62,652 nt of DNA, filler included, from Sphaeroforma arctica JP610 (GCF_001186125.1; 6 parts of 3 records of this genome joined end to end with filler, not necessarily neighbours in it), one strand, 5' to 3'; positions 3,784 through 25,881 are shown, numbered from the whole stretch's first letter. Notes: generated from the sequence alone by a model not told the origin. A program made the numbers and translations.

Positions 3784-4653
3784 TCATGTACACACTAGCA
3801 GGTCGAGGAGGTCGTCACACATGGTGAGGCCGCTTCTGTGTCGTATAATTTCCACCAGGGGCACGTCCGCGACACCGACCCCCAGCCGCCCCCGCGGCAG
3901 GTCGCCGAGGTACAGCGGCAGCTTCGACACCTCCACCGAGACGCTCTCGTCGATTGGCGCAAGGTCCAGCGTGGCCACGTACGCGTCCATCAGCTCCAGA
4001 TGAAGCTTTGGGACATCCATCGGGTAGTGCTTGCTACACATCTGCGCGCAGAGGCCCAGGACCCACGTCGCCGCAATGCCTTTCTGGGGTACCGCACCAC
4101 AGACGTAGCACCTCGTCTCCTGCATCGCCCTCGCGTACTGCGTCCACGTCGCGTACCATGGTGGCATGATGGGGAGTGGGATGCCAAACGCGGCCCGGTG
4201 GTTGTACACGTAGCGCTCCACCGCAAGCGGCGGGGCATCGGGAAGCAGAAGCATAGCCGGAGTCAGCCCGGACCGCTGAATGAGGGCCTCGAGCGCCCAG
4301 TCAGCCACTTCAAACGGCCCCGGCGAGATACTGAGGTTGCACTTTGGCGCCCACGTCCAGAGCGCCTTTACGTGCTGGCCGAGCGCGTCCAAGAGGCCCG
4401 AGAGCTCTAGTCGGAGCTCGAGCCACTGGGCCACATCAAGGCTCGCGTAGCCGTGGTCCTGGAACACGGCCACCGCGTGTAGTGGGTCTTTCCCCGCCAG
4501 GCCCACGACGGCCGCCACGACCTGCGCGGGGAAGGGCACGTAGACGCCGAAGGGGCCGCCGTGGACGCGCTGGCTGTAGATGACCACCGAGCTCAGCGCG
4601 ACAACGCTGTCCACCGTGCACGGCCCGTCCGAACAGTGGAGTGTCATCTGCAT
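3784..4653 (-). CDS. Viral protein with SKP1/BTB-POZ-like N-terminus and a C-terminal Cys/His cluster
   Basis: TLHCSDG..VDSVVALSSVVI..VPFP..VVAAVV..LELSGLLDAL parallels SKP1 (KLQSSDG..VDVEIAKQSVTI..VPLP..ILKKVI..LDIKGLLDVT); CYVC...CAQMCSKH is a putative zinc site. Confidence 0.6.
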   Translation of the reverse strand: MQMTLHCSDGPCTVDSVVALSSVVIYSQRVHGGPFGVYVPFPAQVVAAVVGLAGKDPLHAVAVFQDHGYASLDVAQWLELRLELSGLLDALGQHVKALWTWAPKCNLSISPGPFEVADWALEALIQRSGLTPAMLLLPDAPPLAVERYVYNHRAAFGIPLPIMPPWYATWTQYARAMQETRCYVCGAVPQKGIAATWVLGLCAQMCSKHYPMDVPKLHLELMDAYVATLDLAPIDESVSVEVSKLPLYLGDLPRGRLGVGVADVPLVEIIRHRSGLTMCDDLLDLLVCT

Positions 4654-4724
4654 GCTGTCAATGTCTCCTGTGTAAAACTGACACGCAAGGTGAAATGTCC
4701 CCTGTGTAAAAAGAAAAAAAATAA

Positions 4725-6425
4725 TTAGTCAGAGTCGTCGTTTTCGCTCGCATAATCGCCATAGTTCCGGTCTCGCTTTCGCTCGCGTCGGCCGTGGCCA
4801 GAGGCCGCCATGGCCATAAAGTCCGCGTACATGTCGGGCAGTATGGTGCCCAGCCGGCCTCGGACCATCAGCTCGGCCGGGATGTCTAGCAGCATGAGCC
4901 ACCGCACGTCCATGTTTTTTGTCCTCTCCTGGTTCTCCCCGTACGTGATCAAGACACGGTCTTCGCTGACTGTGCTTGCAATAACCCGTACCAAGCGCGG
5001 GTCTCTGCCGGACACGACTCTGGCCCCAGGCACGAGGTAGGTCTCATAGGCCTCCGCAAACTCGTTGATGGCGCCGGCGTACGCGGTGATCGTCCTCTGG
5101 AGCTGGCGATGTGAGATCGACGCAAAGTAGTCGTGTATCTCGCCCATAGCCAGGTCTGGGAAGGCGACTCGGATGTGCAGGAACAGCATCGTCCACGCGT
5201 TGCAGAAGCCCTCATCCCTTGGATTCCTCAGCTGGGGCCCCGTGGTCGGGCAGGAAAGGTGCAGCGGGACATACCAGAAGCCGAGGTGGCTCAGGCGCTT
5301 CGCCACATAAGCCGACAGCTGGTCGTCCAGTTCCTGCTGCAAGACCCGGTTGTTGCACCCGTGCGGCTCAAAGCGCTCGATTTTCCCCGTGCGCTTATCG
5401 AGGATCAGGGTGTTGGCATGGTCCCAGTCACCTGGCTTGTGGAGATGCATGATTATAAAAATGTAGCGCACGCCATCTTGTGCGTTACACGCCCTTACTA
5501 GTCGCAGCATACCACCCCAGTTCGACAGCCGCCGCGTGTTGGTATTATAAAACAGCTCCAGGGTGCTCACGGACGCACACGCACTGGGGTAGAGTCGTCC
5601 GATAACGTCACGCCACCTGGTGGTGGCCCAGCTCGACGCGTACGTCTCCGCGGTAAGCGCCGTGAAATTCAACTGGTTGTATGTACCGGGAAGAATGGCC
5701 TGCAGCCCGTGCTGTACTGCAACCACGTGTGGCATCTGTAGGAAAACGGACCCCGGGGCTGGGCGCCAGTCGTCAGACACAACCTGTGGCAGTGGGGGTG
5801 AATCGCCGACGTTAACCACCTCGGTGCCGGGCACTGGGGGTTTCTTATACACGGCCTTGAATCTGTCCAGGGCAGCTCGGAATACCGATAAGCCCTTGCG
5901 CCCAACGTCCTCCAGGGCTCTGGTGGCCTCGTTGGGACTGAGAAGCAGCTCTTCTACGTACCTGAGCTGGTAGTAGAAGGTAATATAGGCAAGCGCATTC
6001 CGGGAGGCAAAGGGTGGTACAGTCACCAGGACAATGTTGAAGTCGCCGATCTCGAGCGGCAGGATGTCGTACAGTGCGTCAGCGACCGTCTCCTCCGAAA
6101 ACGGTAGCTCGCCCGAGGTGGGGACCAGGATCTCTATCGTTGCATCGGCGGCAGAGACCACCAGAAGCCCGGCTCGCCATTTCGGGCCACACTGGACCAC
6201 GAGTCTGATTGGGACAAACCGCGGCTCTTGTTCGAGGAACTGTGGGATCCGCCCCAGGAGCTGGGACGTTGTGTCGTCTAAGGGGGCAAACGATTCGAGG
6301 TTGTGTGGATACACGAGTTCTGTGGGGACCAGCGATTCGCGGTCACGCGGATACACGAGTTCTGCGAGAGCAAACCGCCAGAGCCGCGGATGGTGCATGA
6401 CTGCATATCTGGCGAGCGTGGACAT
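4725..6425 (-). CDS. Clan CE (Ulp1-like) cysteine protease, NCLDV type, paralog 1
   Basis: HANTLILD (H336), IERFEPHG (E353), CPTTGPQ (Q398), GFCNAW (C408): the His, acid, oxyanion Gln, Cys order of clan CE. Confidence 0.8.
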   Translation of the reverse strand: MSTLARYAVMHHPRLWRFALAELVYPRDRESLVPTELVYPHNLESFAPLDDTTSQLLGRIPQFLEQEPRFVPIRLVVQCGPKWRAGLLVVSAADATIEILVPTSGELPFSEETVADALYDILPLEIGDFNIVLVTVPPFASRNALAYITFYYQLRYVEELLLSPNEATRALEDVGRKGLSVFRAALDRFKAVYKKPPVPGTEVVNVGDSPPLPQVVSDDWRPAPGSVFLQMPHVVAVQHGLQAILPGTYNQLNFTALTAETYASSWATTRWRDVIGRLYPSACASVSTLELFYNTNTRRLSNWGGMLRLVRACNAQDGVRYIFIIMHLHKPGDWDHANTLILDKRTGKIERFEPHGCNNRVLQQELDDQLSAYVAKRLSHLGFWYVPLHLSCPTTGPQLRNPRDEGFCNAWTMLFLHIRVAFPDLAMGEIHDYFASISHRQLQRTITAYAGAINEFAEAYETYLVPGARVVSGRDPRLVRVIASTVSEDRVLITYGENQERTKNMDVRWLMLLDIPAELMVRGRLGTILPDMYADFMAMAASGHGRRERKRDRNYGDYASENDDSD

Positions 6426-6480
6426 TTTTTTGACTGTATTATTTTATTCCAGAGCTAAAAAGATAATTTGCGCGCCAACC

Positions 6481-8067
6481 CTAAAAAGTTAATGTTTTAG
6501 AGTCTAATGCAACAAAGTCCTCGTACACGTCTGGCAGTACTACTTCCAGCCGGCCCATCGCCATAAGCTCTGCGGGCGGATGTGAAAGCATCAGATGCCC
6601 GACCGGAACCGTCTTTGTCCTTCCGTTGCCTCTCTTTATCAATACCGTGTCATCGTCGCCACTGTACGCTGCTATCACCCACACGCGTGGCGGACCAAGG
6701 GGTAAGACAACTCTGGCCCCATGTACAAAGTGGGTCCTGTAGGCGCTCATAAACAGATTGATGGCCTCGGCGTACCTTGTGATGATGCCGTGTAGCCGGT
6801 GGCGTGAAACGGTATTGAAGAACTCGTGCAGCTCGTCAACCACAAGTCCGGGAAACGCGACCCGCACATGGATAAACAGCAGAGCCCAGGCATTGCAGAA
6901 CCCATTGTCCAAAGTGTCCCTACGCTGAGGGCCGATTCTGGGACAGGCCAGCTCTAGAGGTAGGTAGCGAAACCCAAGGTGGCCCATATACGCAGCAAGG
7001 CTATCCTCCAACTTGTCGATTTTGTAGCTGAACACGCGATGCCCGTGGGGCTCGAAGCGTTCCACGAACCGCGTCTGTGTATCGAACACAAGCATGTTTG
7101 CGTGGTGGGATTCGTTGGATGTGTGGATACTCAGGCTTATAAAGATGTAGCGAACTGCGTCTTGCGCATTACATGCCTCTACGGCTTGTACTGTACCACC
7201 CACGTCCACCAGCTCCTCACTAGTAAGATCATAATACAGCTCGAGATTTGTTATGTCGCGACATGTGCCGGGGTAGAGTTTGCAGATAACGTCAACCCAA
7301 CGTCGCGTGATGTAGGATTTAAAAGAGTCGTCGTCCGGGGACTTAAATTTTAGCACGTTGTAGGTGTCGGGCAGTATCACCTCCAAGCGGTACTGTGCGG
7401 CAAGGAATGCTGGTACCTGCGCAAGAACTGTACGCTCGTCGGTAAGCCAATTGTCCGGCCAGTCGTCTGACATCCTCACCGGCGCCAGCATTGGATGGCC
7501 AACCCGTACCACCGCAGTGTTGTTGACTGGTCGTATCGTATACATGGCCTTGAATCTGTCCAAGGCAGCTTGGAATACAGATAAGCCCTCGCGCCCAATG
7601 TCACCCAGGACTCTGGTGGCCTCGCCTGGACTCAAAAGCAGCTCTTCTACGTACCGGAGCTGGTAGTATAGGGTAATATAGGCAAGCGCGTTCCGTGCGG
7701 CAAAGGGTGGTACAGTCACCAGGACAATGTGTTTGTGCGACACTTCGATTTGCAGGCTACGAGCCAGGGCCCTTGCGATAGTGACCTTGCTAAAAGGTAG
7801 CTCACGCACGGTTGTGACAAGGATCTCAACGACTTTATCAAGGGCAGAGATTACCACGAGCCCGGCGCGCCATTTCCCGTTTATTTCAACTAGGAGTCTC
7901 ATCGGAACAAACCTTGGCTTCGTTTTGAGGTGTGGGCGTATGAACTGGACTACCGTGTCGTCGAAGGGAGCAAACGCCTCCTGGTCCCGCCGGTACACGA
8001 GCTCCGTCAGCGCAAGCTGCGAGAGCTTGGGGTGGTGCATGACTACATATCGCGTAAGGGTGGACAA
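6481..8067 (-). CDS. Clan CE (Ulp1-like) cysteine protease, paralog 2 (TTG at the paralogous start; first ATG at 8040)
   Basis: HANMLVFD, VERFEPHG, CPRIGPQ, GFCNAW; collinear with paralog 1 along the whole length, e.g. YQLRYVEELLLSP is identical. Confidence 0.8.
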   Translation of the reverse strand: MSTLTRYVVMHHPKLSQLALTELVYRRDQEAFAPFDDTVVQFIRPHLKTKPRFVPMRLLVEINGKWRAGLVVISALDKVVEILVTTVRELPFSKVTIARALARSLQIEVSHKHIVLVTVPPFAARNALAYITLYYQLRYVEELLLSPGEATRVLGDIGREGLSVFQAALDRFKAMYTIRPVNNTAVVRVGHPMLAPVRMSDDWPDNWLTDERTVLAQVPAFLAAQYRLEVILPDTYNVLKFKSPDDDSFKSYITRRWVDVICKLYPGTCRDITNLELYYDLTSEELVDVGGTVQAVEACNAQDAVRYIFISLSIHTSNESHHANMLVFDTQTRFVERFEPHGHRVFSYKIDKLEDSLAAYMGHLGFRYLPLELACPRIGPQRRDTLDNGFCNAWALLFIHVRVAFPGLVVDELHEFFNTVSRHRLHGIITRYAEAINLFMSAYRTHFVHGARVVLPLGPPRVWVIAAYSGDDDTVLIKRGNGRTKTVPVGHLMLSHPPAELMAMGRLEVVLPDVYEDFVALDSKTLTF

Positions 8068-8096
8068 TTTTTATTTTTTTTTGAACGTTTATTTAG

Positions 8097-9431
8097 TTAC
8101 CAAGGTAATTTTTCTACATACTGCCTAAAGTGCCACGTGTTCATCAAAAAGCGCCCCAGCTCGTCAATGCACGTGTGCCAGTCGGCGTCCGTCTCGGGGA
8201 GCACAAACATCTCCATGAGCTTCTCGTAGCTGGGTGGGACAGCGATTGTGTTTCTGACCGCCGGGCCAAAGCGGCGGCAGGTGGCGAGCAGGTCCATTTT
8301 CCGGCCATCCCAGGTCCGCCTGTCCAGGGGGCACAGCGATACGTAGGGGTTTGTTCCGTGAACAGAATTTCTGACAAAGACGCCAATGTCGGACAGTTTC
8401 TCCCGATCGCCCGGCGTCACGGGATCCATGTAGACCTCGTCCGCCCACCTGTCCTGGCTCGGGTCAAGGTACGCGCAGAAGCAGAGCACCTTGTCCAGGC
8501 CCTCGATCGTCGTCAGCGCCAGATAGCTGGGGAGCGGCAGGTCTCGGTAACGCGTGTACCACAGGACATAGAAGGGGCACCCCGTGGCCACGGCTATGCG
8601 GCCCAGCTGCAGCAGGATGCGGTTGTTGTCGAGATCGGCCTTCTGGAACAGCAGCACAAGGCGATGGTCGGGGGCCGCGATAACGGCTGTCCAGGCGGGG
8701 GTAACGAACGCGTCGTGGGCGGGGGCCGCGAGCACCGTGCTCCAGAGCTCCGCCAGCATGGCATGCTCCTCAAACAGGACCAGCGACTCTCGCACCACAG
8801 CCTCCCACTCTGCGGGCGTGTTCATGGTAAGCAGGCGGCGGTAGAGATACGGGACTCTGAGGTCCGCGTCCAGGTCGTGGCTGGACATGTGTAGGTAGGG
8901 CAGCAGGGCCCCGGGGAGCTTGGGGAGCTGCGTCGTATCGCCCAGTGGGCGGTTGTTTGCGTAGATCTCAGCGGCGATTTGGCGATCGGGTTCTATAGGA
9001 TAGTACTGCGTCACAACGGCGACACTGGCCGTGTAGACGGAGTCCAGCTCCGCGGCCGTGGCGGACGCGTAGTAGCCGCGGGCACGGGCGGCAAAGAAGA
9101 AGGCAAAGGCCCGGTGGTTCAGCACGGCTCTGAGGGTGGGCAGCATGCTCTGGGGCACCGGTGTACCGCCGGGGGCGAGCCGCTGTATGGCAATGTGCGG
9201 CTGGGACGCGCGGATCGCATTCGCAATGCACGAGGACGCGGAGGCCGGCCGTAAACGCTTCGGGGTCAGGCGTGGAGTCCAGACCGTCTGACACTTGCTT
9301 GGTGTGCCCGGGAACGATGTACCCGAGAGAGACCGCTGGGTGAGCTGACCGAGGGCTTCCTCGGCAGGGGGGAGTTCGGGGGTTGTGGAACGACTGGATC
9401 TGGGTCGAGTGCAGTCGATGGGCTCGGACAT
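8097..9431 (-). CDS. Viral hypothetical protein (444 aa) with S/T-P-rich N-terminus
   Basis: ATG-started ORF filling the space between neighbours, G/C-ending codons; no family recognised. Confidence 0.75.
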   Translation of the reverse strand: MSEPIDCTRPRSSRSTTPELPPAEEALGQLTQRSLSGTSFPGTPSKCQTVWTPRLTPKRLRPASASSCIANAIRASQPHIAIQRLAPGGTPVPQSMLPTLRAVLNHRAFAFFFAARARGYYASATAAELDSVYTASVAVVTQYYPIEPDRQIAAEIYANNRPLGDTTQLPKLPGALLPYLHMSSHDLDADLRVPYLYRRLLTMNTPAEWEAVVRESLVLFEEHAMLAELWSTVLAAPAHDAFVTPAWTAVIAAPDHRLVLLFQKADLDNNRILLQLGRIAVATGCPFYVLWYTRYRDLPLPSYLALTTIEGLDKVLCFCAYLDPSQDRWADEVYMDPVTPGDREKLSDIGVFVRNSVHGTNPYVSLCPLDRRTWDGRKMDLLATCRRFGPAVRNTIAVPPSYEKLMEMFVLPETDADWHTCIDELGRFLMNTWHFRQYVEKLPW

Positions 9432-9520
9432 GGTTGCTAGGGCTCGGTATAGAAGGCAAGACGTCGTGAATATGTAGATTGTACTACATGTACATATTCC
9501 GGATGTGCATCTGTGGTATT

Positions 9521-9537
9521 TATATATATATGCGCGC

Positions 9538-9611
<74 letters not shown>
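9521..9611 (+). repeat. Compound microsatellite (TA)5-(GC)n-(TG)35 inside the viral block
   Basis: Read directly, no gap on either side. Confidence 0.95.
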
Positions 9612-9612
<1 letters not shown>

Positions 9613-9667
9613 TTTTTTTTTTTTAGGGGCGATTGGTGAGGCCTGACTGATCGTCATTTCAGTTATT

Positions 9668-11389
9668 TCAATTGAAGTCTGTTACGGACTCATCATCCTC
9701 TGCAGACTCGGGCAATGGACTACTCTGGGATCTCCTTGAGGACGACTCCCCTCTGCTGGCGATTCGAGCCTGTGACCCCGCTCTGCGTGGTTTTGGTGAC
9801 TTTGGCGGCACGATATCTCTGCGACATTTTGACAGTTTTAGGGATGTCTTTTTTTGTTCTTCTATATTCACCTGGATGTCGCTTGTCAAGTCGTCGATAC
9901 GCATGTGACTCCTCAGACTGTTGGGTGAAGTGAGTACGTTCGCATACTGGTTTGGCTCCAAATTCATATTGTCTGCTACAGTTGGTTTGCAGCCGGTCTT
10001 GAGCTTGCGAGATACTTCAGAGGCCTTCACCTTGGTGCCCAACACGGCGCTCTTCTTTGTGGTTCTCTGGGACTGTGCCCTGGGTTTTGTTTTGTGCTGG
10101 AGAAAGTATTTGGGGCTGTCAACAAACCGCTCGAGCTTGTCGCGTACCTCGGGAGTAAGTTTTAGTTTCTGTTCCGACACCACGTCATCAACGGCGAAAC
10201 GCACGATCGCCTGGTCTCTGGTAAGTTTGATCTTCAGGTGGCGCACCTTCATCCACTTCAAGTATGGCGTTTTGTCGGGGCGACTGCGCTTCTGAAGGAC
10301 CATCATGTCGCCACCCGGTGTCAAGTCCAGCGTTCCGGCCTTTATAATATTTCCATCCAGAGATGGGGGGATCATCGACTTACCCAGACGCACACTGCGG
10401 TACAGCCGGCTCATTTCGCGCGACTTTTTGAAATCGGCGTTGGGATCGGTAAAGTCGAGGGAGTGTTGGATGGGTCGTGCGGTAAAGTCTCGCGTGTACA
10501 TATCTGGGTACAAACTGGCGGCTGCCAGCTTCTCCAAATCGTCCTCAATGTCCTCGTCTCTTATCATGCGGGCTACGATCATCCCCCCGTTCTTACCGAA
10601 CTGAGTTTCACGCCAGTCGAGTGCAAACGTGCGGGACTTATCGGACGACTTATGGTGTCTTCTCGAGAACTCCCTAAAGTCTGCGTGGGTGCACCCCTTG
10701 GTGGTGAAGTTGATCTCATTGGGCTTGGACCCAACCTTGGTATCGCCACACGACGCCTCTACAGGGATCTTTATCCACCTGTAGGTTTGTATCCCGTTCA
10801 GCATGTTCCCTTTTGCAACACGGAACATCGTGCCATTGGAGTGGATGTACATGAGCCGGTCGTCGTAGTCTTCCCGGCTTGGTGAAAAGAACGGCCGCAC
10901 TGCGGCACTCTTCCAGTTGAACTTGTAGCTTCGGCCGTTCAACATCACACGGTTCAGCTTACCCAAGGTGGGCTTGTTGGCGTTGTGCACATTGAACACA
11001 TAGGGCAATCCATCCATCCCAATGTACAACCCATTGACCATGGCGCTGCGAAAGCGCATCACGTCCGTTGGCGTTTTGAGAAGCTCCTTTTCTTCAGCTG
11101 AAATGGGTTTATCCTGAAAGCTCCGGGAAAGCGTCTGCACGATGTCTGATGAGATGGGCACCGGTAGGGTGTTTGGGACAAAGTACTGTTCGCTCACCGG
11201 GGCGATCTTGAAATTTTTGAAAAAGTCGTGCTCCTTGTAGAATTCCACCAGGGGTTCGGCTATAAGAAGGTATTCTGTATACGCCGCGTCAAAGGCCAGC
11301 CGCGCATCCCTTTGCTTGGCTTCTTCGCGCGCCTCTTCGATTTCCCCGCGGGTGCGTCTAATGTTCTCGCTATCTTCGGATACCGACAT
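9668..11389 (-). CDS. Viral hypothetical protein (573 aa from MSVSED) with three degenerate G.DG..Y/M....W.K-type motifs and a basic/Ser-rich tail
   Basis: Start reassigned to ATG 11389 because the upstream extension is poly-A/T spacer; motifs IGMDGLPY..NWKS, HSNGTMF..RWIK, TPGGDMM..KWMK. Confidence 0.8.
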   Translation of the reverse strand: MSVSEDSENIRRTRGEIEEAREEAKQRDARLAFDAAYTEYLLIAEPLVEFYKEHDFFKNFKIAPVSEQYFVPNTLPVPISSDIVQTLSRSFQDKPISAEEKELLKTPTDVMRFRSAMVNGLYIGMDGLPYVFNVHNANKPTLGKLNRVMLNGRSYKFNWKSAAVRPFFSPSREDYDDRLMYIHSNGTMFRVAKGNMLNGIQTYRWIKIPVEASCGDTKVGSKPNEINFTTKGCTHADFREFSRRHHKSSDKSRTFALDWRETQFGKNGGMIVARMIRDEDIEDDLEKLAAASLYPDMYTRDFTARPIQHSLDFTDPNADFKKSREMSRLYRSVRLGKSMIPPSLDGNIIKAGTLDLTPGGDMMVLQKRSRPDKTPYLKWMKVRHLKIKLTRDQAIVRFAVDDVVSEQKLKLTPEVRDKLERFVDSPKYFLQHKTKPRAQSQRTTKKSAVLGTKVKASEVSRKLKTGCKPTVADNMNLEPNQYANVLTSPNSLRSHMRIDDLTSDIQVNIEEQKKTSLKLSKCRRDIVPPKSPKPRRAGSQARIASRGESSSRRSQSSPLPESAEDDESVTDFN

Positions 11390-11582
11390 GTTGTATAATT
11401 GGTGGGTTTTGTTTTTCGTTCCCAACAAATCCGTTAATCTTTCATTGTGGTAATAAAAAAAAAAAATAAAAAAAAATTTAGAGGGTTCGCGAAATCTGTG
11501 GAAAAATGCGGGGGATTTTTTTTTTTTGGTTAAACGATGCACGCCTGCCAATGAAAGCAGGACAGTTTAGCAGACCAGCAGC

Positions 11583-12194: not shown

Positions 12195-12293
12195 ACAACA
12201 GCAAAAAAAAAAAAAATAGAAAAGCGCGCGACACTTTTTAATTTCAGTCACACTCGCACTAGTGTATTACTAAGCACATCAAACTACCTAACA

Positions 12294-17790: not shown

Positions 17791-17888
17791 GGCGCCCCCG
17801 CCCTTGGTGCGCGCGGGTTTTTAGGGTTTTGTCTGTGGGGCGATCCGAGCGGGCTGCGACTCTACGTAGTTACGCTGAGGGGAATACG

Positions 17889-18004
17889 TTTTATTTACAT
17901 ATCTCCTATACAATATTCTATATACAATTTTGTATGTACAATGTTCTATATACAATTTTCGTATAATAAGTTTTATTTACATATCTCCTATACAATATTC
18001 TATT
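17889..18004 (+). repeat. AT-rich direct repeats (TTTATTTACATATCTCCTATACAATATTCTAT x2) between convergent genes
   Basis: Read directly; a role in termination is inference only. Confidence 0.7.
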
Positions 18005-18022
18005 TTTTTTTACCATGTACTA

Positions 18023-21000
18023 TCACGCCCGGATCTTCGGGAAAATCTTCGTGGTCACACCCAGCGCCGCCAGGTTGTGCATCAGCAGCTTGAACACGTA
18101 CGGGATGACTATCCGGACTGTCTGCGAGGTATCGCAAATCGCACAGCTGTCCCGTTGCGAGTTGACTATGTTGCCGCACACTGAGCAGATCACCATCGAG
18201 TACTTGTCGCTGCACTCGAGCGCCTTGTCCACTAGCATTGACGACGCCCCGTGCGCTGACAAGCAACTCAGTTCCATTTCCCCCAAGCGGAGCGCGCCGT
18301 TGCTCGACCGCCCGCTCAGCGGCTGGCGCGTAATGGCCTTGACCGACCCCACCGACCGGCTGTAGATCTTGTCCGCCACCAGGTGCTTGAGTCGGTGGTA
18401 GAAGGTCGGCGCCATGAATATCGGGGTCTCAATCTTCTGCCCCGTCGTCCCGTCGTACATGATGCACGTCCCCTCGGAACTGTACCCGGCGGCCACCAGC
18501 TCCTCCTTTGCACTCTCCACATAGTTCTCGGTCCCGTTCCAGGCCGTCTTGTTCACGCGGCTGATCCCCGCTGTCAGCGCCGCAATGCTGTGCGCGCCCT
18601 CGAGGATCTGGCTCAGCGTCATGCGCGACGGCAGCGCGCACGGGTTGAGGATGAGGTCGGGGATCACACCGTCCGCCGTAAAGGGCATGTCCTCGTGCGA
18701 CACAATCAGCCCGATGGTGCTCTTCTGCGCCGATCGCGAGCAGAACTTATCGCCGACCTCCGGAACGCGCAGCTCACGGATGATAACCTTGACACAGCTG
18801 TTGCCCTTGCGCGTCTTGAACGTGATCGTGTCGTGCACGACGGGGAACCGGTCCTTGGTCGTGAAGGCCACCGACTTGTCTGTGATCACATCCCCGACCC
18901 GCGCGTAGCGGCCCACGAGCACCGTGTCGACCTGCAGCCTGGTCCCGATCCGCACTATGCCCGTGTCCGGGTCCAGCGCGCTAAAGTCCAGGTGCTTCTT
19001 GCGGTAGGTCTCTGGGGGCACCCCGATGGTCACGCTCTTCTCCTGGGCGAGCGAGATGTCGTCAGCTGCAATTGTGCGCATCGTGTATGCGTAGAACATC
19101 CCCTTGTCAATAGCGGACTTGGAGATGATGATGGCATCCTCCTGGTTGAACCCCATGTACGGTGCCACCGCTACCATCGCGTTGTTGCCCGAGACCATGC
19201 GGTCCAGGTACAACGCACTGGAAACGTCGCTGTCCACGATGGGGACCTGGCCATTGACCAGGTAGTGCGTGGTGGTCTCGCACGCGTCCTCGAGGCTGTC
19301 GTACAGCCACGAGATGGCCTGCTTGCCCATGTTGGAGTAGTAGGTGACGCGCGGCGACTGGTTGGTCTCCACGAACGGCACAATTGAGCTCATGACCCCG
19401 AGCAACGCGGCGGGGTGTATCTCCATGTACCGCGTCGCATCGGTGATATCGTTCGCCACCATGGCGACGACCTCGTTCTCGAGTTCACACACGGTCCGGT
19501 ACACGATGACGCCCTCGGCCACGAGCTCGTCAAACAGGTCGTCGGTTTTTTCCCAGACCACTCTGGGCCTGTCCCGGTCCATAATGTCCTTGAGCCGCTG
19601 GCGGGCGCCAATGTCAACCAGCGGGCGGATCATGCGCCCCTCGTCGCACAGGACGCTGATGGTCCGTCGGCCGTCCATGTGCACGGACGTGTGTGGGTGG
19701 ACGAGCTTGCGGGTGCGCCAATCGCGAAAGACCGCCAGGAAGGCGTCCGGGGAGTCGTCGAGCGCAAACACGGGCCGGTTGTTGAGCGTCACGACGGTGG
19801 TCCCGGCCTCTATCGCGCCCGGGGCGGTGCGCTCGGTGCCGAGGCCGTCCACCAGCCGCCGCAGCGTCATCAGGACGTGCGTAAAGTTCTGCTCCTCCGT
19901 CACCTCGGTGGTCAGCGCAAAGTTCTTGACGAGGCCGACGGTGGCGCCCTCGGGCGTCTCGCAGTGGTCAATGAAAAAGTTTCCCGAGAAGTGCACGCTG
20001 CGCACGTCCGAGTTCTTGAGCTCCTTGCTGCACGGCTGCACGACGCGCTTCATGTAGCTCAGGGCGCTCGTGTAGCTTATGCGACCCAAGATCTGCGAGA
20101 CGCCCGCCCGCACGTACGTCGAGCGGATCGCGCACCAGTTGCCGGTGCTGAAGCTGTACTGGATGCACTTGGTCAGGTTGTTGTACCGACTAAGGATGTT
20201 GGCGAGCGAGATGTTTGCGTTGCTGGAGGTCGCAATGTTGCGCGCGAAGCGCTTGAACGAGATCTTGAACAGGCTCTTGAGCAGCGTGCCCGAAACTTCT
20301 ATTCGTTTGTTCGCATAATGATCCCGGGAGTCGGGCGGCCGCGCGCCGATCAGGGTCTTGAACCCGCGGTTGAACATGTCCAGCACCGCGATCACGCAGT
20401 CGCCCCGCTTGATGTACTGCCCGAGGTGCGGGAACAGCTCCTCCTCGACCACGCGCTTGATCTCAATGTTGGTCCTTGCGCCCTTGGTGCAGGTCGGGTG
20501 CGGCGCGCCGGCCTCGAGGTGCAGCGTGTACCCGCGGACGAAGCGCTCCAGCAGCACGCGGTTCTTCTGGTCCACGGGCCGATCAACGTGGGCCCAGAAC
20601 TCGTCGACGCCAATGTCCAGCATGCCCAGGAGCTGGTACATGTCAATGGTCTGGTTGACACACGGGACAACGTAGGTCGCACTGAGGCTAAAGTCCTTGA
20701 CGCACAGCAGCATCTTGTTAAGGGCGCTGTGCGACGTAGCACTGGACATGCTGCGCATCTCCACGGTCACCGCGCCGTGCTTGAGCAGGCACAGAGGGAC
20801 GTTGTAGGCCATGCGCTCCTGCGACACGAGCACGCGCTCCTTGCCCCGGATGATAAAGTAGCCCTTGAGGTCGGTCTCGGACACGGTGGGCAGCGTGGCG
20901 TAGCGCGTGTTGCACAGCTTGGAGCCGACCATGATGGGCAGTTTCATGAACGGGTAGCGGCAGACCTGGCCGACGTTGTCGCGACTGGTCTGTATGCGTA

Positions 21001-21274
21001 TGTCCACGTACACGGTGCCGTCATAGGAGATGTCGCGCATCTTGGCCTCGCGGGGTGTCAGGTAGTGGATCTTGCGGTTGTCGTCGACAATGGTCGGGCG
21101 CTCGACGACAATGTTCGTAAATGCAAAGTCGCAGTTCTTGTTGTCGGCGCGAATGACGTTGCGGGTCTCGGTCTCAATGACGTTCCGCAGACCCTCCGAC
21201 ACAAACAGGTCAAACGAGCTCAGGTGGACCTCGTAGACGGACCGCGTGTGCAGATAGCTCTTGAGAATCTCCAT
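18023..21274 (-). CDS. RPB2: DNA-directed RNA polymerase second-largest subunit, viral
   Basis: GYFIIRGKERV, ETPEG, NQSPR, FNQEDA, GDKFCSRSAQK, PDLILNP...PSRMT, YHRLKHLVADK, TRQP..GR...GALRLGEME, C-terminal CxxC..CxxC; intronless, 1083 aa. Confidence 0.97.
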   Translation of the reverse strand: MEILKSYLHTRSVYEVHLSSFDLFVSEGLRNVIETETRNVIRADNKNCDFAFTNIVVERPTIVDDNRKIHYLTPREAKMRDISYDGTVYVDIRIQTSRDNVGQVCRYPFMKLPIMVGSKLCNTRYATLPTVSETDLKGYFIIRGKERVLVSQERMAYNVPLCLLKHGAVTVEMRSMSSATSHSALNKMLLCVKDFSLSATYVVPCVNQTIDMYQLLGMLDIGVDEFWAHVDRPVDQKNRVLLERFVRGYTLHLEAGAPHPTCTKGARTNIEIKRVVEEELFPHLGQYIKRGDCVIAVLDMFNRGFKTLIGARPPDSRDHYANKRIEVSGTLLKSLFKISFKRFARNIATSSNANISLANILSRYNNLTKCIQYSFSTGNWCAIRSTYVRAGVSQILGRISYTSALSYMKRVVQPCSKELKNSDVRSVHFSGNFFIDHCETPEGATVGLVKNFALTTEVTEEQNFTHVLMTLRRLVDGLGTERTAPGAIEAGTTVVTLNNRPVFALDDSPDAFLAVFRDWRTRKLVHPHTSVHMDGRRTISVLCDEGRMIRPLVDIGARQRLKDIMDRDRPRVVWEKTDDLFDELVAEGVIVYRTVCELENEVVAMVANDITDATRYMEIHPAALLGVMSSIVPFVETNQSPRVTYYSNMGKQAISWLYDSLEDACETTTHYLVNGQVPIVDSDVSSALYLDRMVSGNNAMVAVAPYMGFNQEDAIIISKSAIDKGMFYAYTMRTIAADDISLAQEKSVTIGVPPETYRKKHLDFSALDPDTGIVRIGTRLQVDTVLVGRYARVGDVITDKSVAFTTKDRFPVVHDTITFKTRKGNSCVKVIIRELRVPEVGDKFCSRSAQKSTIGLIVSHEDMPFTADGVIPDLILNPCALPSRMTLSQILEGAHSIAALTAGISRVNKTAWNGTENYVESAKEELVAAGYSSEGTCIMYDGTTGQKIETPIFMAPTFYHRLKHLVADKIYSRSVGSVKAITRQPLSGRSSNGALRLGEMELSCLSAHGASSMLVDKALECSDKYSMVICSVCGNIVNSQRDSCAICDTSQTVRIVIPYVFKLLMHNLAALGVTTKIFPKIRA

Positions 21275-21327
21275 TCTGTTTTATTTTCGAGTACAACCAC
21301 ACTCAGGCACAGGTGGAGTTTCGGTAT

Positions 21328-21335
21328 TCAATTTT
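21328..21335 (-). promoter_or_regulatory. AAAATTGA, NCLDV early-promoter-like octamer about 55 nt upstream of RPB2
   Basis: TCAATTTT on the plus strand; exact match to the mimivirus early promoter motif at a plausible distance; single instance in an AT-rich tract. Confidence 0.5.
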
Positions 21336-21405
21336 TTATTTTACCACGCGTGACAAAATAAAAAAGTATAAAAGGGGCGCGCACAAGCAAAAACGCTCAC
21401 AACTC

Positions 21406-22083
21406 ATGTGCACATCTACAGAACACATCAGTCTCGACATGGCCAACCTCACCAAGTTCTCGGTCTTTGGCTCGTGTGGGCGCCTGCTGCTCAGCACCAA
21501 CCGGATGTCCACGGAGCTGCTGCAGAACCTGCTAAAGACCAGGCCCACGTACATTGACTGCCGCGAGTTTATGGACGACTGCCCTCCGGAGATGACGGCA
21601 ACGTCTGTGGTGCCAACCGAGCCCGACAAGTGGGAGTTTGTGGTCGCGTCGAACACGGCCGAGCTGCCGCCGAACCGCACGTTCCCGCAGTTTGGGGGCC
21701 CGGTGATTGTAGCCCGCAAGCTGGCCTACGACCCGCTGCAGGTCCAGTTCCGCAAGCGTGTCAAGGCGCTGCACGAGCGGCGCATCCGGCCGGTCTCGCG
21801 AAAGTTTCGGATCCCGCCCACGGTGGGGCGCCGCCTCTCGACGGTCTACGAGACGTTCCACGAGCTGCACGAGGGGTCGCTGAAGCAGGGGGTCCCAGAG
21901 ATCCGCATCTCCTGCTATGACGGGCCGCTGGTCATTCCAGTGGAAGCCATCCCGCTGCCAGTGGAGGTGGCGGACTCAAAGGTCGAGTCGCCCGTGGAGG
22001 TGCCGGACCTCGGAGAGAATGTGGACACTCGCGATTGCTGGTACGGGGTGACACACGCAAAGCTGCAGTACGCCTCTATGTAA
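21406..22083 (+). CDS. Viral hypothetical protein (about 225 aa; alternative ATG 21439)
   Basis: G/C-ending codons, divergent from RPB2, stop followed by a poly-A tract. Confidence 0.75.
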   Translation: MCTSTEHISLDMANLTKFSVFGSCGRLLLSTNRMSTELLQNLLKTRPTYIDCREFMDDCPPEMTATSVVPTEPDKWEFVVASNTAELPPNRTFPQFGGPVIVARKLAYDPLQVQFRKRVKALHERRIRPVSRKFRIPPTVGRRLSTVYETFHELHEGSLKQGVPEIRISCYDGPLVIPVEAIPLPVEVADSKVESPVEVPDLGENVDTRDCWYGVTHAKLQYASM

Positions 22084-22117
22084 ATAAAAAAAACAATAAA
22101 AATAATACATTTAAAAA

Positions 22118-23062
22118 CTACACGTACACTGCATCAGACACCACCTTTGATATTTTCTTTGCGTAACCAGCACCCTTGTACTCGCGCAGCACGTTGCCGG
22201 ATAGATAGATGCGGGTTGTCGGGAACGCCACAATGTCCTGGTTGAGGTCCTGGTATTTTGCGTTGACCAGTGCGAATCGCACATTGTCGCCGTACCGCTC
22301 GGTCTGTGTAAGGGCCACCTGCTCAAGACCGGGCAAGAAGGTCGCACAGGCGCTGCAGCCGTCCATCGTGTGTGTCACAACCACCACCTTGTGGGAGCTC
22401 AGCACCGCGGCCAGCTGTTCATGGGTCTCCAGCATCAGGAAGGGGCCGTTGGTTGCGATCTGGGGCGTATTGGTCAGCGTGGACGGGTCCTGTGTCGCGT
22501 AGTTGAGGCCCCCTTGAGAGGTCGAGTACTGGGGGTTCGAGTACGACGGGCCCGAGTACGTGTTGGGATGCTGGCCGCCGTCGGGCGTGGGGTACTTGTT
22601 GGTATTTGGTCGCGAAGGATGGTGTGTGGTGCTTGGTTGCGAAGTATACGGTACTGTGGTGCTTGGGTCGGCGGTCATGTCCAGCGCCCGGATGGAGACG
22701 CCCCCGTTGACGCGCCGGTCGCCGGCGGCCATGGGCGTCGTGCGGTCGTTGACGCCGTACTGGGTGCGCTCAGCCTCGGTCATCCGCACAATCTTGCCGC
22801 CCCGCAGCTCCTTGGGCAGGTACTTTTCAAACTCCGAGTAGTCGCCCGTGTCCTGGAAGAGCGTGTCGTTGGGCGCGTACGGTGCGGCACTCCCCCCCGT
22901 CATGTCATGGTGGACCTTTTGCTGTTGTACATTGTGGTACTGGTACTGCCCCTCCTGCGTGTGCTGTCGCTGGTTGTCCTGCATATCGTACATGGCGTTT
23001 CGGCGCTCGTCGTTGCGGACTGGCTCAGGCGCGTTGCGCACGTCGCCGATTTTCTTGTACAT
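22118..23062 (-). CDS. Thioredoxin-domain protein with long low-complexity N-terminus
   Basis: VVVTHTMDGCSACATFLP (CxxC), VRFALVN, IVAFPTTRIYLSG (cis-Pro loop). Confidence 0.85.
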   Translation of the reverse strand: MYKKIGDVRNAPEPVRNDERRNAMYDMQDNQRQHTQEGQYQYHNVQQQKVHHDMTGGSAAPYAPNDTLFQDTGDYSEFEKYLPKELRGGKIVRMTEAERTQYGVNDRTTPMAAGDRRVNGGVSIRALDMTADPSTTVPYTSQPSTTHHPSRPNTNKYPTPDGGQHPNTYSGPSYSNPQYSTSQGGLNYATQDPSTLTNTPQIATNGPFLMLETHEQLAAVLSSHKVVVVTHTMDGCSACATFLPGLEQVALTQTERYGDNVRFALVNAKYQDLNQDIVAFPTTRIYLSGNVLREYKGAGYAKKISKVVSDAVYV

Positions 23063-23116
23063 GTTGCCGTTGTTTGTGCATAGCCCCGGGCCTCTTAAAC
23101 CAAATTTTGTCTTTGC

Positions 23117-23857
23117 CTAGTAAAACATCATCGGGTTGGCCTTTGGCTTCCGCATGGCCACTGCAACAACAATGATGATGAAAAACAGGAACAGGGTCAC
23201 CCCGCCGCCTATAAAGAGCCACGTCTGCAGCCTCAGGGGGCCGTACTCCTTGTCCAGGGCGCTGACCTCCTCTGCCCCCGTTTCGGTGGCCCCAGCGGCT
23301 GGCACTGCACCCGCGGCTGCACCCGCGGCTGGCGCGGCTGCGCCTGCGACCGGTGCCACGGGCGCCTGCACGCAGGCGAACGGGCCCGTGGCCGAGTCAA
23401 ACGTCAGCACGACCTGGGTGATGGGCGTGGCCTCTGCGTCCACGACCAGCTCCGCCGTCAGCGGGTCCAGCCCCAGCACGTCCGTGGTGCCGGTGATCCC
23501 AATCCCGGTGGCCGTGGCCGTGGCCGTGGTGGCCGTCGTGTTGTTTGCAACCACAACGCCCTTGAGGGTGAGCAGGATCCCCTGTGTTGTGGGAGTATCT
23601 ATCTCTGGCACGATGCGGTTTTCGACACGCTTCATAAGGTAGGTCACCACGGGGGTTGCGGCAGTTGTGGCCAGCATGCGCACATTGAACTCACAGGCCG
23701 TTCCACTGGCAGTCGCCGGATCGCCCTCGAACACAAACTTGGACGCCACGAGGGTCGCCCCCGTCCGCGTGGTTGTCTCAAACATGGTCTTGTCAGCACT
23801 AAGATCCAGGGCCTGACCATTGATGGTGAGCGTAAAGGTCGCCAGGGTCGACGCCAT
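23117..23857 (-). CDS. Thr/Ala-rich protein with C-terminal transmembrane helix (candidate virion membrane protein)
   Basis: WLFIGGGVTLFLFFIIIVVAVAM followed by RKPK. Confidence 0.75.
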   Translation of the reverse strand: MASTLATFTLTINGQALDLSADKTMFETTTRTGATLVASKFVFEGDPATASGTACEFNVRMLATTAATPVVTYLMKRVENRIVPEIDTPTTQGILLTLKGVVVANNTTATTATATATGIGITGTTDVLGLDPLTAELVVDAEATPITQVVLTFDSATGPFACVQAPVAPVAGAAAPAAGAAAGAVPAAGATETGAEEVSALDKEYGPLRLQTWLFIGGGVTLFLFFIIIVVAVAMRKPKANPMMFY

Positions 23858-23957
23858 GGTGTTTTGTTATCTTGGAAATAAAAATATTAAAAAATCGTAT
23901 AAGTACCGTGTTTTTATTATTGTCAGTTCACAACTACAGAGAGGAGCAACAGACAAC

Positions 23958-24362
23958 ATGGTCGCAACTACCACTACCCCCGAGCCGTTCCACATCAAGA
24001 CCTTCACGCGGGAGCGCCTCAGCGGCGTGGAGGCCATCGCCGCCTGCAAGTCGCACCACTACGTCTTTGTCCGCGGCGGGCGTGCAGACGGACCCGGTGC
24101 CGTGGACTGGGGTGTCCTCAGCGACGTGTTTACAATGCACTCGGGCATCTCGCAGCGCAAGTTTGTCCTCGTCGTTGTCAGCCCCGACATCGTCTCGTCC
24201 CACGCGTCACTGGCCCAGAGCGTGCACGCCGCCGATGCACCCCTCGCCCGCTTCCACGTGCTGCTGGTCGGGTACACGCAGGGTACCCTGGACGCGCTCT
24301 GCCGCGACGAGGGCGCGCACATCGAGGACCTGGTCTCGCTCTCGAGCGCCGAGGTTGTTTAG
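23958..24362 (+). CDS. Viral hypothetical protein (134 aa)
   Basis: ATG in ACAACATG context after an AT-rich spacer; G/C-ending codons. Confidence 0.65.
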   Translation: MVATTTTPEPFHIKTFTRERLSGVEAIAACKSHHYVFVRGGRADGPGAVDWGVLSDVFTMHSGISQRKFVLVVVSPDIVSSHASLAQSVHAADAPLARFHVLLVGYTQGTLDALCRDEGAHIEDLVSLSSAEVV

Positions 24363-24375
24363 GTCTCGACATGAT

Positions 24376-24867
24376 CTACCAGAGCACACTCTGCGTGGAC
24401 CGGTTCCTAAACATGCCCATGTCGAGGTGGCCACTGGATACCGGGGCATCCAGAGAGTCGCTGAGGGTGGTCAGGATTAGGCGGGGCGTCTCACGCAGGC
24501 GGATGTCGGACGGTCGGACCCGGGCTACGAGGTGGGGGTTCGTGGGCTTGCTGGACGTGGTGCGATCGAATCGCCGGGAGGTGTACGGGGACCCGTACCT
24601 GTAGAGGTGCTCAAAGTTTGTCGTGGATCGGGTGGCGGTCGGGTACTGTGGTACAGGTGTGGACGGCGACTGGCGGCGCGACGGGCGAGTGCGGTTGCCT
24701 TGCTCGTCCGGCAAGTCATTGTAGTCCACTGTGTATATGGACGACTGCCGGCGCCGGGACTGGCGGGACTGGCGGCGGACGGCATCGTCGCTGCTACTAT
24801 CCGTGTATTTGTCCTTGGACTGTTTCCCGGGCGTCAGGGCCTTCTTGAGTTTCTTGAATATACCCAT
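24376..24867 (-). CDS. Basic Ser/Arg-rich viral protein (163 aa, MGIFKKLKK...)
   Basis: Start reassigned to the ATG after an A-rich leader; RRQS repeats. Confidence 0.6.
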   Translation of the reverse strand: MGIFKKLKKALTPGKQSKDKYTDSSSDDAVRRQSRQSRRRQSSIYTVDYNDLPDEQGNRTRPSRRQSPSTPVPQYPTATRSTTNFEHLYRYGSPYTSRRFDRTTSSKPTNPHLVARVRPSDIRLRETPRLILTTLSDSLDAPVSSGHLDMGMFRNRSTQSVLW

Positions 24868-25209
24868 GGCGGCTTTTTGTTTCTCACATATAATGCGCCA
24901 AATGTGTTTCACGGGTCGGATAACGTGTCGTGAACCAGCAAACCGAAAATCAAGCTTTGGATAATGGTCTGCAGAATAAATAAATAAAATATAAAATGGA
25001 CAAGTGTACTTTGTGCTCGCCCGTAGGTTCTTGCACCATCGCGCGCGCGTGTGTTTCAGGGGCTGGCCCCGCCCCCCGTCCAATTGTCTCGTTCTGCCCG
25101 TCGCTTGCCGGCTCCGAGGTGTTCTTCTACTACCCGCGGAGCCCCGACCCTCCCGTTAGACGGGCGCCATTGAGAAAAGTCCTGTGCGCCGCGCGCCGCG
25201 GACCAGAGA

Positions 25210-25881
25210 CTAGTCCAGTGGCAGCAGATCTCTATAGGTGTAGTAATGCATGTGGAACATTTTCCCCTCGTACCCGTGAATGTCCTTGACAATTGCGTTT
25301 GCGGCCCGGTAGAACGCAAACCTCGGCGACTCGGGGTCGGTGTCAGCCACCAGGGTGTTTGCTCTGAGTGGCTCAAAGGCCTTGAAGGTCTTGATGATGA
25401 ACCGTTCAATCTTGCTGCGCCGCTCGGGTGACACCTGCATCACAAAGTCCACAAACTGTCGGTCTACGCTGAGTAAAAACATGCCCACCGGGGCGATGAG
25501 CACATGGTACTTGAGCCCGTCCGTGATCGTTGCCTGCAACGTGTACAGAAAGTCCGTGCCCGAGAACCACCCGTACGGCATCGCGGCCTTTGTGGTCTGC
25601 GGGTGCGTGTGGAAGACCAGCTTCTCATACCGGGGCATGTGGACCTCGCCCATGGTGCCATAGTTTGTCGGCTCCACCCAGACCTCGTGGGGCCCGTTGC
25701 CGTCTCCCGGCACGCCGGACGTCGTCACGATCCCCGCGGTCTCCTCGGTGAGCAGCAGCAGCTCGATGCACTGCACAAGGGTCTCTTGCCGGATGTAGAA
25801 CGGCTTCCTGGTCCCCACGCGGTTCATCGGGCAGTTCGGGTCGCCACACAGGCCGTGCTTCACCTTGTCTAGATTCCCCAT
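25210..25881 (-). CDS. JAB/MPN+ (JAMM) metalloprotease, NCLDV type
   Basis: EETAG ... FHTHP ... GWFSGTD gives E, HxH, SxxD; HVLIAPVGMF downstream strand. Confidence 0.8.
   Translation of the reverse strand: MGNLDKVKHGLCGDPNCPMNRVGTRKPFYIRQETLVQCIELLLLTEETAGIVTTSGVPGDGNGPHEVWVEPTNYGTMGEVHMPRYEKLVFHTHPQTTKAAMPYGWFSGTDFLYTLQATITDGLKYHVLIAPVGMFLLSVDRQFVDFVMQVSPERRSKIERFIIKTFKAFEPLRANTLVADTDPESPRFAFYRAANAIVKDIHGYEGKMFHMHYYTYRDLLPLD

What the first reader, a model, noticed from the sequence alone, without database searches (positions are those of the whole stretch)
3784..25881. Viral ubiquitin/Ubl-manipulation toolkit: SKP1/BTB-like adaptor, two CE proteases and a JAMM enzyme
Four of about 18 viral genes map to ubiquitin-system folds, three of them adjacent and co-oriented (3784-8067). 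CE proteases and JAMM enzymes are established Ub/SUMO/NEDD8 deconjugases and SKP1/BTB folds bind cullins, so a coordinated cullin-ligase hijack is plausible. CE proteases can alternatively process virion proteins.
Basis: partly seen in the sequence, partly recalled or inferred. Interest (0 to 1): 0.7.

Follow-up and report, generated by a model that had tools for sequence, protein, structure and literature searches.

The report
Common giant-virus proteases in a protist
A giant-virus DNA fragment in the genome assembly of the protist Sphaeroforma arctica carries two duplicated cysteine-protease genes and a likely zinc enzyme from families common in giant viruses; the protease pair lacks the residue that marks ubiquitin-cutting enzymes, so the genes likely do not form a coordinated ubiquitin-hijacking toolkit.

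Summary
All four ORFs are real and intact, in a GC-rich giant-virus island of Sphaeroforma arctica (an insertion reported in 2017).

- **Proteases (566 and 519 aa):** one tandem duplication (51% identical). CE fold confirmed (model pLDDT 80; Z 15 to ChlaDUB2), with an intact His-Glu-Cys site. They belong to a widespread giant-virus family that includes the virion-core protein MEL_206. The aromatic Gly-Gly gatekeeper is absent in 63 of 63 members but present in 19 of 19 maturation-type (C48) proteases from sampled giant-virus records. They therefore fit neither classic Ub/SUMO/NEDD8 proteases nor maturation proteases.
- **223-aa ORF:** has JAB-type catalytic residues. Its family touches Tox-JAB-2/DUF4329, a clade published as a predicted nuclease, not a JAMM deubiquitinase.
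- **289-aa ORF:** an orphan; BTB/Skp1 is only a weak lead.
- **Linkage:** the JAB gene lies 17 kb away and relatives show no conserved linkage.

The cullin-hijack toolkit is not supported. The scan found this protease family before, on other DNA.

The parts
1..26591 (.). Giant-virus (Nucleocytoviricota)-derived island in the Sphaeroforma arctica assembly: gene-dense, intronless, GC 0.60. The left end lies outside the window; the right end abuts scaffold gaps.
   Evidence: RPB2 by Pfam, best viral relatives only 27-30% identical. Organism name from P0002. Insertion noted in PMC5294986.
3784..4653 (-). 289-aa orphan ORF. Residues ~1-100 possibly Skp1/BTB-POZ-like (lead only). A CxxC...CxxxC possible zinc-binding motif at ~183-207 was seen by eye and not tested.
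   Evidence: Atlas features 0.83, with 10 of 10 named hits in one family or clan; Skp1_POZ row TM 0.26/0.60 over residues 1-84, under the bar. No Pfam hit; only itself found. AF2 single-sequence pLDDT 34. Pairwise tests not significant.
4725..6425 (-). CE-fold cysteine enzyme 1 (566 aa). Predicted catalytic His336, Glu353, Cys408 and oxyanion Gln398; Ala337 sits at the gatekeeper position.
   Evidence: (independent 61-sequence profile, E 5e-28).
5781..6398 (-). N-terminal half of CE enzyme 1 (residues 10-215): possibly a catalytically dead second copy of the CE domain (His replaced by Arg, no Cys). Suggestive only.
   Evidence: Register visible. Shuffle control 7 of 1000 and 0 of 1000 for the two paralogues. 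Against it: hhalign E 0.13 and real-protein control 326 and 124 of 831.
6481..8040 (-). CE-fold cysteine enzyme 2 (519 aa), tandem paralogue of enzyme 1. His313, Glu330, Gln372, Cys382; Ala314 at the gatekeeper position.
   Evidence: 51% identity; profile E 3e-31; sister to enzyme 1 with SH-aLRT 100 in a quick tree; dN/dS about 0.31 in the catalytic part.
18023..21274 (-). RNA polymerase second-largest subunit (RPB2), intronless and divergent; marks the island as a large DNA virus.
25210..25881 (-). 223-aa JAB-type (Tox-JAB-2/DUF4329-like) predicted zinc hydrolase of a widespread giant-virus family. E47, H91, H93, S107, D110 are present; the family-conserved Glu at 132 and Pro at 106 are replaced here.
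   Evidence: Atlas 0.96 to unnamed Nucleocytoviricota clusters. External profile E 9e-11 among 605 window frames..

Best explanation
This is likely an ordinary stretch of an endogenised giant-virus genome, in which a tandem-duplicated pair of CE-fold enzymes is predicted to act as virion-carried cysteine proteases that are not restricted to Gly-Gly ends, independently of a likely zinc-dependent JAB hydrolase 17 kb away and of an orphan protein that may be a BTB/Skp1-type adaptor. SHOWN: CE fold; the His336/Cys408/Gln398 set conserved across the family; Ala at His+1; duplication; family spread; lack of conserved linkage. INFERRED chemistry: Cys408 attacks an amide, His336 is the base, Glu353 orients it, and Gln398 forms the oxyanion hole. 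INFERRED specificity: without the aromatic lid the S2 pocket would admit a side chain larger than Gly, so the substrate is likely an X-Gly or other non-Gly-Gly bond. INFERRED from MEL_206 only: packaging in the virion core and action on core or host proteins early in infection. The JAB protein is inferred to act on nucleic acid or another non-ubiquitin substrate, following the published prediction for Tox-JAB-2.
For: Fold: AF2 on a 63-row alignment, pLDDT 79.9. The top 29 VIA rows (Z 8.9-15.0) are CE-fold or related effector enzymes, and the list then drops to Z 6.2. The closest viral structures are uncharacterised or ankyrin-labelled giant-virus proteins (E 3e-11 onward), while annotated viral Ulp1-like proteases rank 42-47. 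Gatekeeper: His+1 is Ala 53, Ser 6, other 4, aromatic 0 of 63, against Trp in 19 of 19 Peptidase_C48 proteins from the sampled records. PMC7391069 (sections 7 and 12 read) ties this residue to Gly-Gly selection and notes its absence in ATG8 and UFM1 proteases. MEL_206 shows the same motifs in the printed alignment, with His-Ala opposite His-Trp of Cdu1 and SENP1; it is a core protein at about 26 copies per particle. Spread: CE family in 28 of 36 records and JAB family in 23 of 36 (records were picked through one or the other family). Both occur in 15 of 36; where they share a contig they are 18, 62 and 144 kb apart. JAB lies within 8 kb of a CE gene in 0 of 79 loci, and CE within 5 kb of JAB in 9 of 120 loci, which are 2 of 38 sequence clusters. 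Tandem or paired CE genes occur in 10 of 79 loci.
Against: The best structural neighbours are true deubiquitinases (ChlaDUB2 Z 15.0, ChlaDUB1 14.1, SseL 14.0), and the only PDB sequence hits of the profile are a Simkania CE enzyme (E 0.18-0.24). The gatekeeper rule has exceptions (ZUFSP; mutants keep partial activity; PMC7391069). PMC13365592 proposes MEL_206 as a deubiquitinase and found di-glycine peptides on its cross-link partners. No substrate is known for any member. Packaging is inferred from one distant relative. The DUF4329 link rests on 5 of 45 members (best E 7e-5), not on this protein itself. Integration is not shown by contiguous sequence: the junction crosses N gaps.
Confidence: 0.6

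Rival explanations
1. The CE pair are deubiquitinases or Ubl proteases that select the Gly-Gly tail by other means, as proposed for MEL_206, acting on their own and not as part of a cullin module.
For: Closest solved folds are DUBs and deSUMOylases. An AF3 MEL_206-ubiquitin model (medium to low confidence by the authors' own legend) and di-glycine peptides on its partners. 15 of 36 sampled giant-virus records have a ubiquitin-family match. ZUFSP is a DUB without the motif.
Against: 0 of 63 have the aromatic gatekeeper. In the peer-review file of PMC13365592, a human ubiquitin-vinylsulfone pull-down from infected amoebae enriched no DUB. That test is inconclusive, because no DUB of any origin was enriched from those lysates.
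Confidence: 0.2
2. The CE pair are acyl- or acetyltransferases like YopJ/AvrA, which use the same His-Glu-Cys site.
For: The YopJ family lacks the conserved Trp residues (PMC4961225 passages). AvrA Z 11.9, HopZ1a 9.6, PopP2 9.6. The acid in the triad is Glu.
Against: DUB and protease structures score higher. PMC7391069 states that the aromatic position does not separate DUBs from acetyltransferases. No acetyl-CoA or IP6 site was tested.
Confidence: 0.1
3. One reading: a coordinated cullin-ligase hijack, with a BTB/Skp1 adaptor, Ubl proteases and a deneddylating JAMM enzyme working together.
For: The possible BTB gene is adjacent to the CE pair. The Atlas lead points consistently to BTB/Skp1. 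BTB and Skp1 genes are rare in the sampled records (2 of 36 each), so their presence would be somewhat notable.
Against: BTB is unproven. The CE enzymes lack the Gly-Gly gatekeeper. The JAB protein is Tox-JAB-2-like and 17,170 bases away. No conserved synteny. No cullin, RING, E2 or F-box gene was found by Pfam among the 16 island ORFs scanned.
Confidence: 0.06
4. The CE pair are the virus's Gly-Gly core-maturation proteases (pS273R, I7 or adenain type).
For: Fold similarity: pS273R Z 12.7, I7 12.3, adenain 10.1. The relative MEL_206 is in the virion core.
Against: Giant viruses carry a separate single-copy Peptidase_C48 gene (19 of 36 records) with His-Trp in 19 of 19. A profile of those finds nothing in the window (best E 0.34), and the CE-family profile scores them at E >= 0.05.
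Confidence: 0.04

Closest known systems
Melbournevirus MEL_206 (UniProt A0A097I1W2; PMC13365592) and the unnamed giant-virus CE family (His-Ala-Asn ... Phe-Glu-Pro-His-Gly ... Gly-x-Gln ... Gly-Phe/Tyr-Cys)
   Same: Same motif order and the same Ala after the catalytic His, read from the alignment printed in supplementary file 11 (compared by eye, not scored). CE fold with Chlamydia DUBs as structural neighbours.
   Different: Here there are two tandem paralogues of 566 and 519 aa with a long N-terminal half (possibly a dead CE copy) and a short C-terminal domain. MEL_206 is 388 aa. Many marine members are 700-800 aa, and several close structural hits are labelled ankyrin proteins.
Bacterial CE-clan deubiquitinases and deUblases (ChlaDUB1/2, SseL, SnCE1, OtDUB) and eukaryotic ULP/SENP/NEDP1 (MEROPS C48)
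   Same: Fold (Z 11-15), His-before-Cys order, oxyanion Gln.
   Different: 8-16% identity, no Pfam C48 hit, no His+1 aromatic, and Glu in place of Asp as the acid.
Viral maturation proteases pS273R, I7L, adenain, and the giant-virus Peptidase_C48 gene
   Same: CE fold; virion association of a relative.
   Different: Separate sequence family; the C48 proteins sampled keep His-Trp (19 of 19).
Tox-JAB-2 / DUF4329 (PF14220), reported in iridoviruses, mimiviruses and algal viruses (PMC3482391)
   Same: E, H[ST]H, S, D motif; 5 of 45 family members hit DUF4329; occurs in large DNA viruses.
   Different: This protein has no hit of its own. There are 13 residues from the second His to Ser here and 15 in all 111 relatives; the canonical JAMM value of 7 is recalled. 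The paper calls the viral versions secreted, whereas no strongly hydrophobic segment was seen here (maximum 1.29).
Skp1 / BTB-POZ cullin adaptors
   Same: Atlas feature and structure neighbours are BTB or Skp1_POZ; the N-terminal pattern looks Skp1-like by eye.
   Different: No significant sequence or structure score. The C-terminal two-thirds is unrelated and carries a possible zinc motif. No homologue was found anywhere.
Sphaeroforma NCLDV insertions of the Iridoviridae/Marseilleviridae cluster (PMC5294986)
   Same: Same species; viral genes grouped in a small island among eukaryotic genes.
   Different: That survey used five core markers. In the passages read it does not discuss these genes; whether it shows this very contig (its Figure S5) was not seen.

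Membership tests
Clan CE cysteine proteases | CE fold | tested here: met
   AF2 pLDDT 79.9; ChlaDUB2 Z 15.0, rmsd 3.4, 183 aligned; Foldseek E 3e-5. Only the catalytic domain of enzyme 1 was modelled.
Clan CE cysteine proteases | His-acid-Cys triad in His-before-Cys order with an oxyanion Gln | tested here: met
   His 63 of 63, Cys 63 of 63, Gln 62 of 63; none of these was in the search pattern. The Glu was in the pattern, so its invariance is not independent.
Gly-Gly-specific DUB/ULP proteases (Ub, SUMO, NEDD8) | Aromatic residue directly after the catalytic His | tested here: not met
   Ala in both paralogues; aromatic in 0 of 63; criterion from PMC7391069.
Gly-Gly-specific DUB/ULP proteases (Ub, SUMO, NEDD8) | Cleavage of or binding to a ubiquitin-like protein | not testable with these tools
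Giant-virus Peptidase_C48 / pS273R-type maturation protease | Match to the C48 profile and His-Trp | tested here: not met
   No Pfam C48 hit in 63 of 63 members; the viral C48 profile has no window hit; His-Ala.
JAB/MPN+ superfamily | Glu, HxH, Ser, Asp catalytic set | tested here: met
   E47, H91, H93, S107, D110 invariant in 45 of 45. Only E47 is independent of the DNA pattern used to collect the relatives.
JAB/MPN+ superfamily | JAB (deaminase-like) fold | tested here: inconclusive
   No model was folded. The profile has no PDB hit at E <= 10. The nearest named Atlas clusters are Prok-JAB 0.85, DUF4329 0.83 and Toxin-JAB1 0.82, which are leads only.
Eukaryotic JAMM deubiquitinases/deneddylases (Rpn11, CSN5, AMSH) | Sequence match to eukaryotic JAB/MPN profiles or solved JAMM enzymes | tested here: not met
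   No JAB/MPN family is among the 25 shown (of 33) Pfam families hit by the 45 members, except DUF4329. No PDB hit.
Tox-JAB-2 / DUF4329 | DUF4329 profile match with E, H[ST]H, S, D | tested here: inconclusive
   5 of 45 relatives match (best E 7.1e-5); the window protein itself does not.
Skp1/BTB-POZ adaptors | BTB/POZ fold at the N-terminus | tested here: inconclusive
   Atlas lead only; own model pLDDT 34; no Pfam hit; pairwise shuffles reached the observed score in 1063, 665 and 54 of 2000.
Skp1/BTB-POZ adaptors | Binds a cullin N-terminus | not testable with these tools
   No host cullin sequence was held, and the protein has no relatives to align.

The most novel reading that the evidence does not exclude
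The pair are virion-delivered CE proteases, each built from a dead and a live copy of the domain, whose open S2 pocket lets them strip non-Gly-Gly modifiers such as ATG8 (Phe-Gly) or UFM1 (Val-Gly). The whole unnamed family would then be a giant-virus anti-autophagy or anti-UFMylation enzyme class, kept intact in the genome of a close relative of animals.
Probability: 0.12. Interest if true: 0.7.

Novelty: new member of a known kind. Interest (0 to 1): 0.25.

Why it matters
As a locus it is ordinary: a known kind of viral insertion holding common giant-virus genes. Its value is as a caution and a handle. Fold alone labels these proteins deubiquitinases, yet a defining residue says otherwise for the whole family, including the published candidate MEL_206. 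Two intact paralogues in a culturable protist close to animals offer host-matched material to find what this widespread, uncharacterised protease family cuts.

Tried and rejected
- Pfam, PHROGs and NCBIfam scans and single-sequence PDB searches named none of the four ORFs.
- Three word-indexed homologue searches returned only the window's own proteins. The full HMMER search for the 289-aa protein returned only itself.
- Its single-sequence model (pLDDT 34) was too poor for a fold search.
- Direct searches with the 223-aa and 289-aa proteins in 21 virus records found nothing (17 handles were not held). A viral-contig scan with the 223-aa protein also found nothing.
- A viral Skp1 family could not be built (self only).
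- The dead N-terminal CE copy passes composition-matched shuffles but fails the real-protein control, so it is left as a lead.
- Complex prediction of the CE domain with ubiquitin was not available, so there is no result.
- No whole genome is held, so other viral islands of this assembly were not seen.
- Expression: no RNA holder was listed. The two runs guessed as RNA cover 6 kb of host DNA without a joint and behave as DNA.
- The tree is the quick version; the careful search did not finish.
- Seven paper searches listed no study that assays this CE family or the viral JAB family. Subscription papers are not covered. Two supplementary files of PMC13365592 were not searched, and supplements of the other papers were not read.
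Full report
Setting. Window positions 1-26.6 kb are gene-dense, intronless and GC-rich (0.60, against 0.43 for the rest). They hold an RPB2 gene whose best viral relatives are only 27-30% identical. A database record of the 25210-25881 gene names the organism as Sphaeroforma arctica JP610. PMC5294986 (passages read) already reports viral genes in small islands in this species and places them in the Iridoviridae/Marseilleviridae cluster. The right junction crosses scaffold gaps, so integration is not shown by contiguous sequence. It is supported indirectly: the stretch 3500-11500 is held by 20 listed runs of 7 studies; contig depth is about 1.5-4 times that of neighbouring host DNA in the 4 runs laid (a rough measure only); and a GT microsatellite sits between viral genes. 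In those 4 runs the two indels lie outside the ORFs, so the three clustered genes are unbroken.

The two proteases. They are 51% identical over 538 columns and sisters in a quick tree (SH-aLRT 100), with dN/dS about 0.31 in the catalytic part. They are therefore one duplication under purifying selection. A pattern scan of viral contigs found 128 related stretches among 198 pattern matches, and 79 loci were kept. I aligned 61 of them with the two window domains, dropping 17 near-duplicates and one locus with an internal stop. His336 and Cys408 are invariant and Gln398 is present in 62 of 63, and none of these was in the pattern. A profile built without the window proteins finds both at E 3e-31 and 5e-28 among 605 frames. 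The model (pLDDT 79.9, pTM 0.79) matches clan CE: ChlaDUB2 Z 15.0, SseL 14.0, pS273R 12.7, I7 12.3, Ulp1 11.9, AvrA 11.9, RavZ 10.9. The fold thus covers deubiquitinases, maturation proteases and acetyltransferases and cannot choose among them. Among viral models the closest are uncharacterised or ankyrin-labelled proteins of pithoviruses, mimiviruses, orpheovirus, marseilleviruses and medusavirus.

What they cut. PMC7391069 (sections 7 and 12 read) shows that an aromatic residue after the catalytic His restricts DUBs and SUMO/NEDD8 proteases to Gly-Gly tails, and that ATG8 and UFM1 proteases lack it. This family has it in 0 of 63. As an internal control, the separate Peptidase_C48 gene found in 19 of 36 giant-virus records has His-Trp in 19 of 19, and neither family's profile detects the other significantly. 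Melbournevirus MEL_206 shares the motifs as printed in a supplement of PMC13365592. It sits in the virion core at about 26 copies and cross-links to MEL_369 and MEL_280. The authors propose a DUB from fold and an AF3 model without an enzyme assay, and their ubiquitin-probe pull-down was uninformative. I therefore infer virion-carried proteases with a non-Gly-Gly or relaxed specificity. A DUB that works without the gatekeeper remains possible, since ZUFSP does so and DUBs are the top fold hits. The N-terminal halves align in register with the catalytic halves, with Arg in place of the His and no Cys. Shuffles support a dead second copy (7 and 0 of 1000), but hhalign (E 0.13) and a real-protein control (326 and 124 of 831) do not.

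The JAB protein. The Atlas places it with unnamed Nucleocytoviricota clusters at 0.96. Of these, 111 carry the motif in frame, and their profile finds the window ORF alone at E 9e-11. In a 45-row alignment (44 of the 111 plus the window protein), Glu47 is invariant although it was not in the pattern. The only Pfam family hit by more than one member is DUF4329 (5 of 45). PMC3482391 (passages) equates DUF4329 with Tox-JAB-2, reports it in iridoviruses, mimiviruses and algal viruses, says it lacks the residues lining the Ubl-tail tunnel, and predicts a nuclease. PMC3239186 (passages) gives the catalytic set and the RadC precedent. There is no PDB hit and no model, so the fold is probable, not shown. 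The window copy has lost two family-conserved residues (Pro106 and Glu132 positions).

The 289-aa protein. It has no relative in 5.8 billion clustered proteins by word search or in 1.84 billion representatives by HMMER. The Atlas gives BTB neighbours at 0.83, a score that shuffled proteins reach about a third of the time, and Skp1_POZ structural rows under the naming bar. Pairwise tests against one viral Skp1 and two viral BTB proteins were not significant. I put a BTB/Skp1-like N-terminus at roughly even odds; cullin binding is untested.

Is it a toolkit? The four genes reduce to three lineages, one of them unproven. The CE and JAB families were found in 28 and 23 of 36 virus records (chosen through one or the other family) and together in 15, without close linkage in those records. 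Among fetched loci, 0 of 79 CE loci have a JAB gene in their flanks. Nine of 120 JAB loci have a CE gene, and these are 2 of 38 sequence clusters. Paired CE genes are seen in 10 of 79 loci. No relative of the window's neighbouring genes was found in the CE or RPB2 loci. The window's JAB gene is 17,170 bases from the nearer protease. Nothing here exceeds what common gene families in a fragment of a giant-virus genome would give.

Earlier notes of this scan describe the same protease family on other DNA. One makes the same gatekeeper point, which I had measured before reading it; these notes are not independent support. Verdict: folds partly right, system not supported; a new member of known kinds; interest 0.25.

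Noticed in passing
window 13615-17790 (+) and 25986-26591 (+): A 1391-aa Gly-rich repeat protein with YadA-head-like 16-residue repeats and a C-terminal Peptidase_S74 chaperone domain: a likely trimeric fibre. A second, shorter paralogue runs into the scaffold gap.
   Followed up: no
window 25210-25881 (-): The database gene model SARC_00119 is 253 aa with a different C-terminus. The unspliced 223-aa ORF ends in a segment that aligns with the family's last strand, so the spliced model may be an annotation artefact; profile scores barely differ (42.4 vs 41.7 bits).
   Followed up: partly
window 9516-9631: A long GT microsatellite lies between two viral ORFs, a host-type repeat inside the island.
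   Followed up: no
window 5799-6037 and 7492-7730: The N-terminal halves of the two proteases share a 239-nt stretch at 84% identity, with lower synonymous divergence (0.58) than the catalytic halves (1.38): possible gene conversion.
   Followed up: partly
window ~4806-5030 (-) and ~6500-6700 (-): The C-terminal ~70 residues of both proteases look like a small beta-barrel (SH3/KOW-like) by eye; no Pfam support.
   Followed up: no
window 11583-12194 (+), 22118-23062 (-), 23117-23857 (-): A DUF5850 protein, a thioredoxin-domain protein and a protein with a C-terminal membrane anchor; 535-3486, 8097-9431 and 9668-11389 are long ORFs with no family hit.
   Followed up: no
L092, L125, L132, L134, L143, L149, L162, L170 and L133: Two giant-virus lineages keep a JAB-family gene about 4-5 kb from a CE-family gene.
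   Followed up: partly
L212:1198-1683 (-): A canonical 161-aa Skp1 gene in a giant-virus bin (G040), found only once in the viral contig scan.
   Followed up: partly
window 32340-33731 (-): A host-side ORF with a zf-C3Hc3H domain.
   Followed up: no
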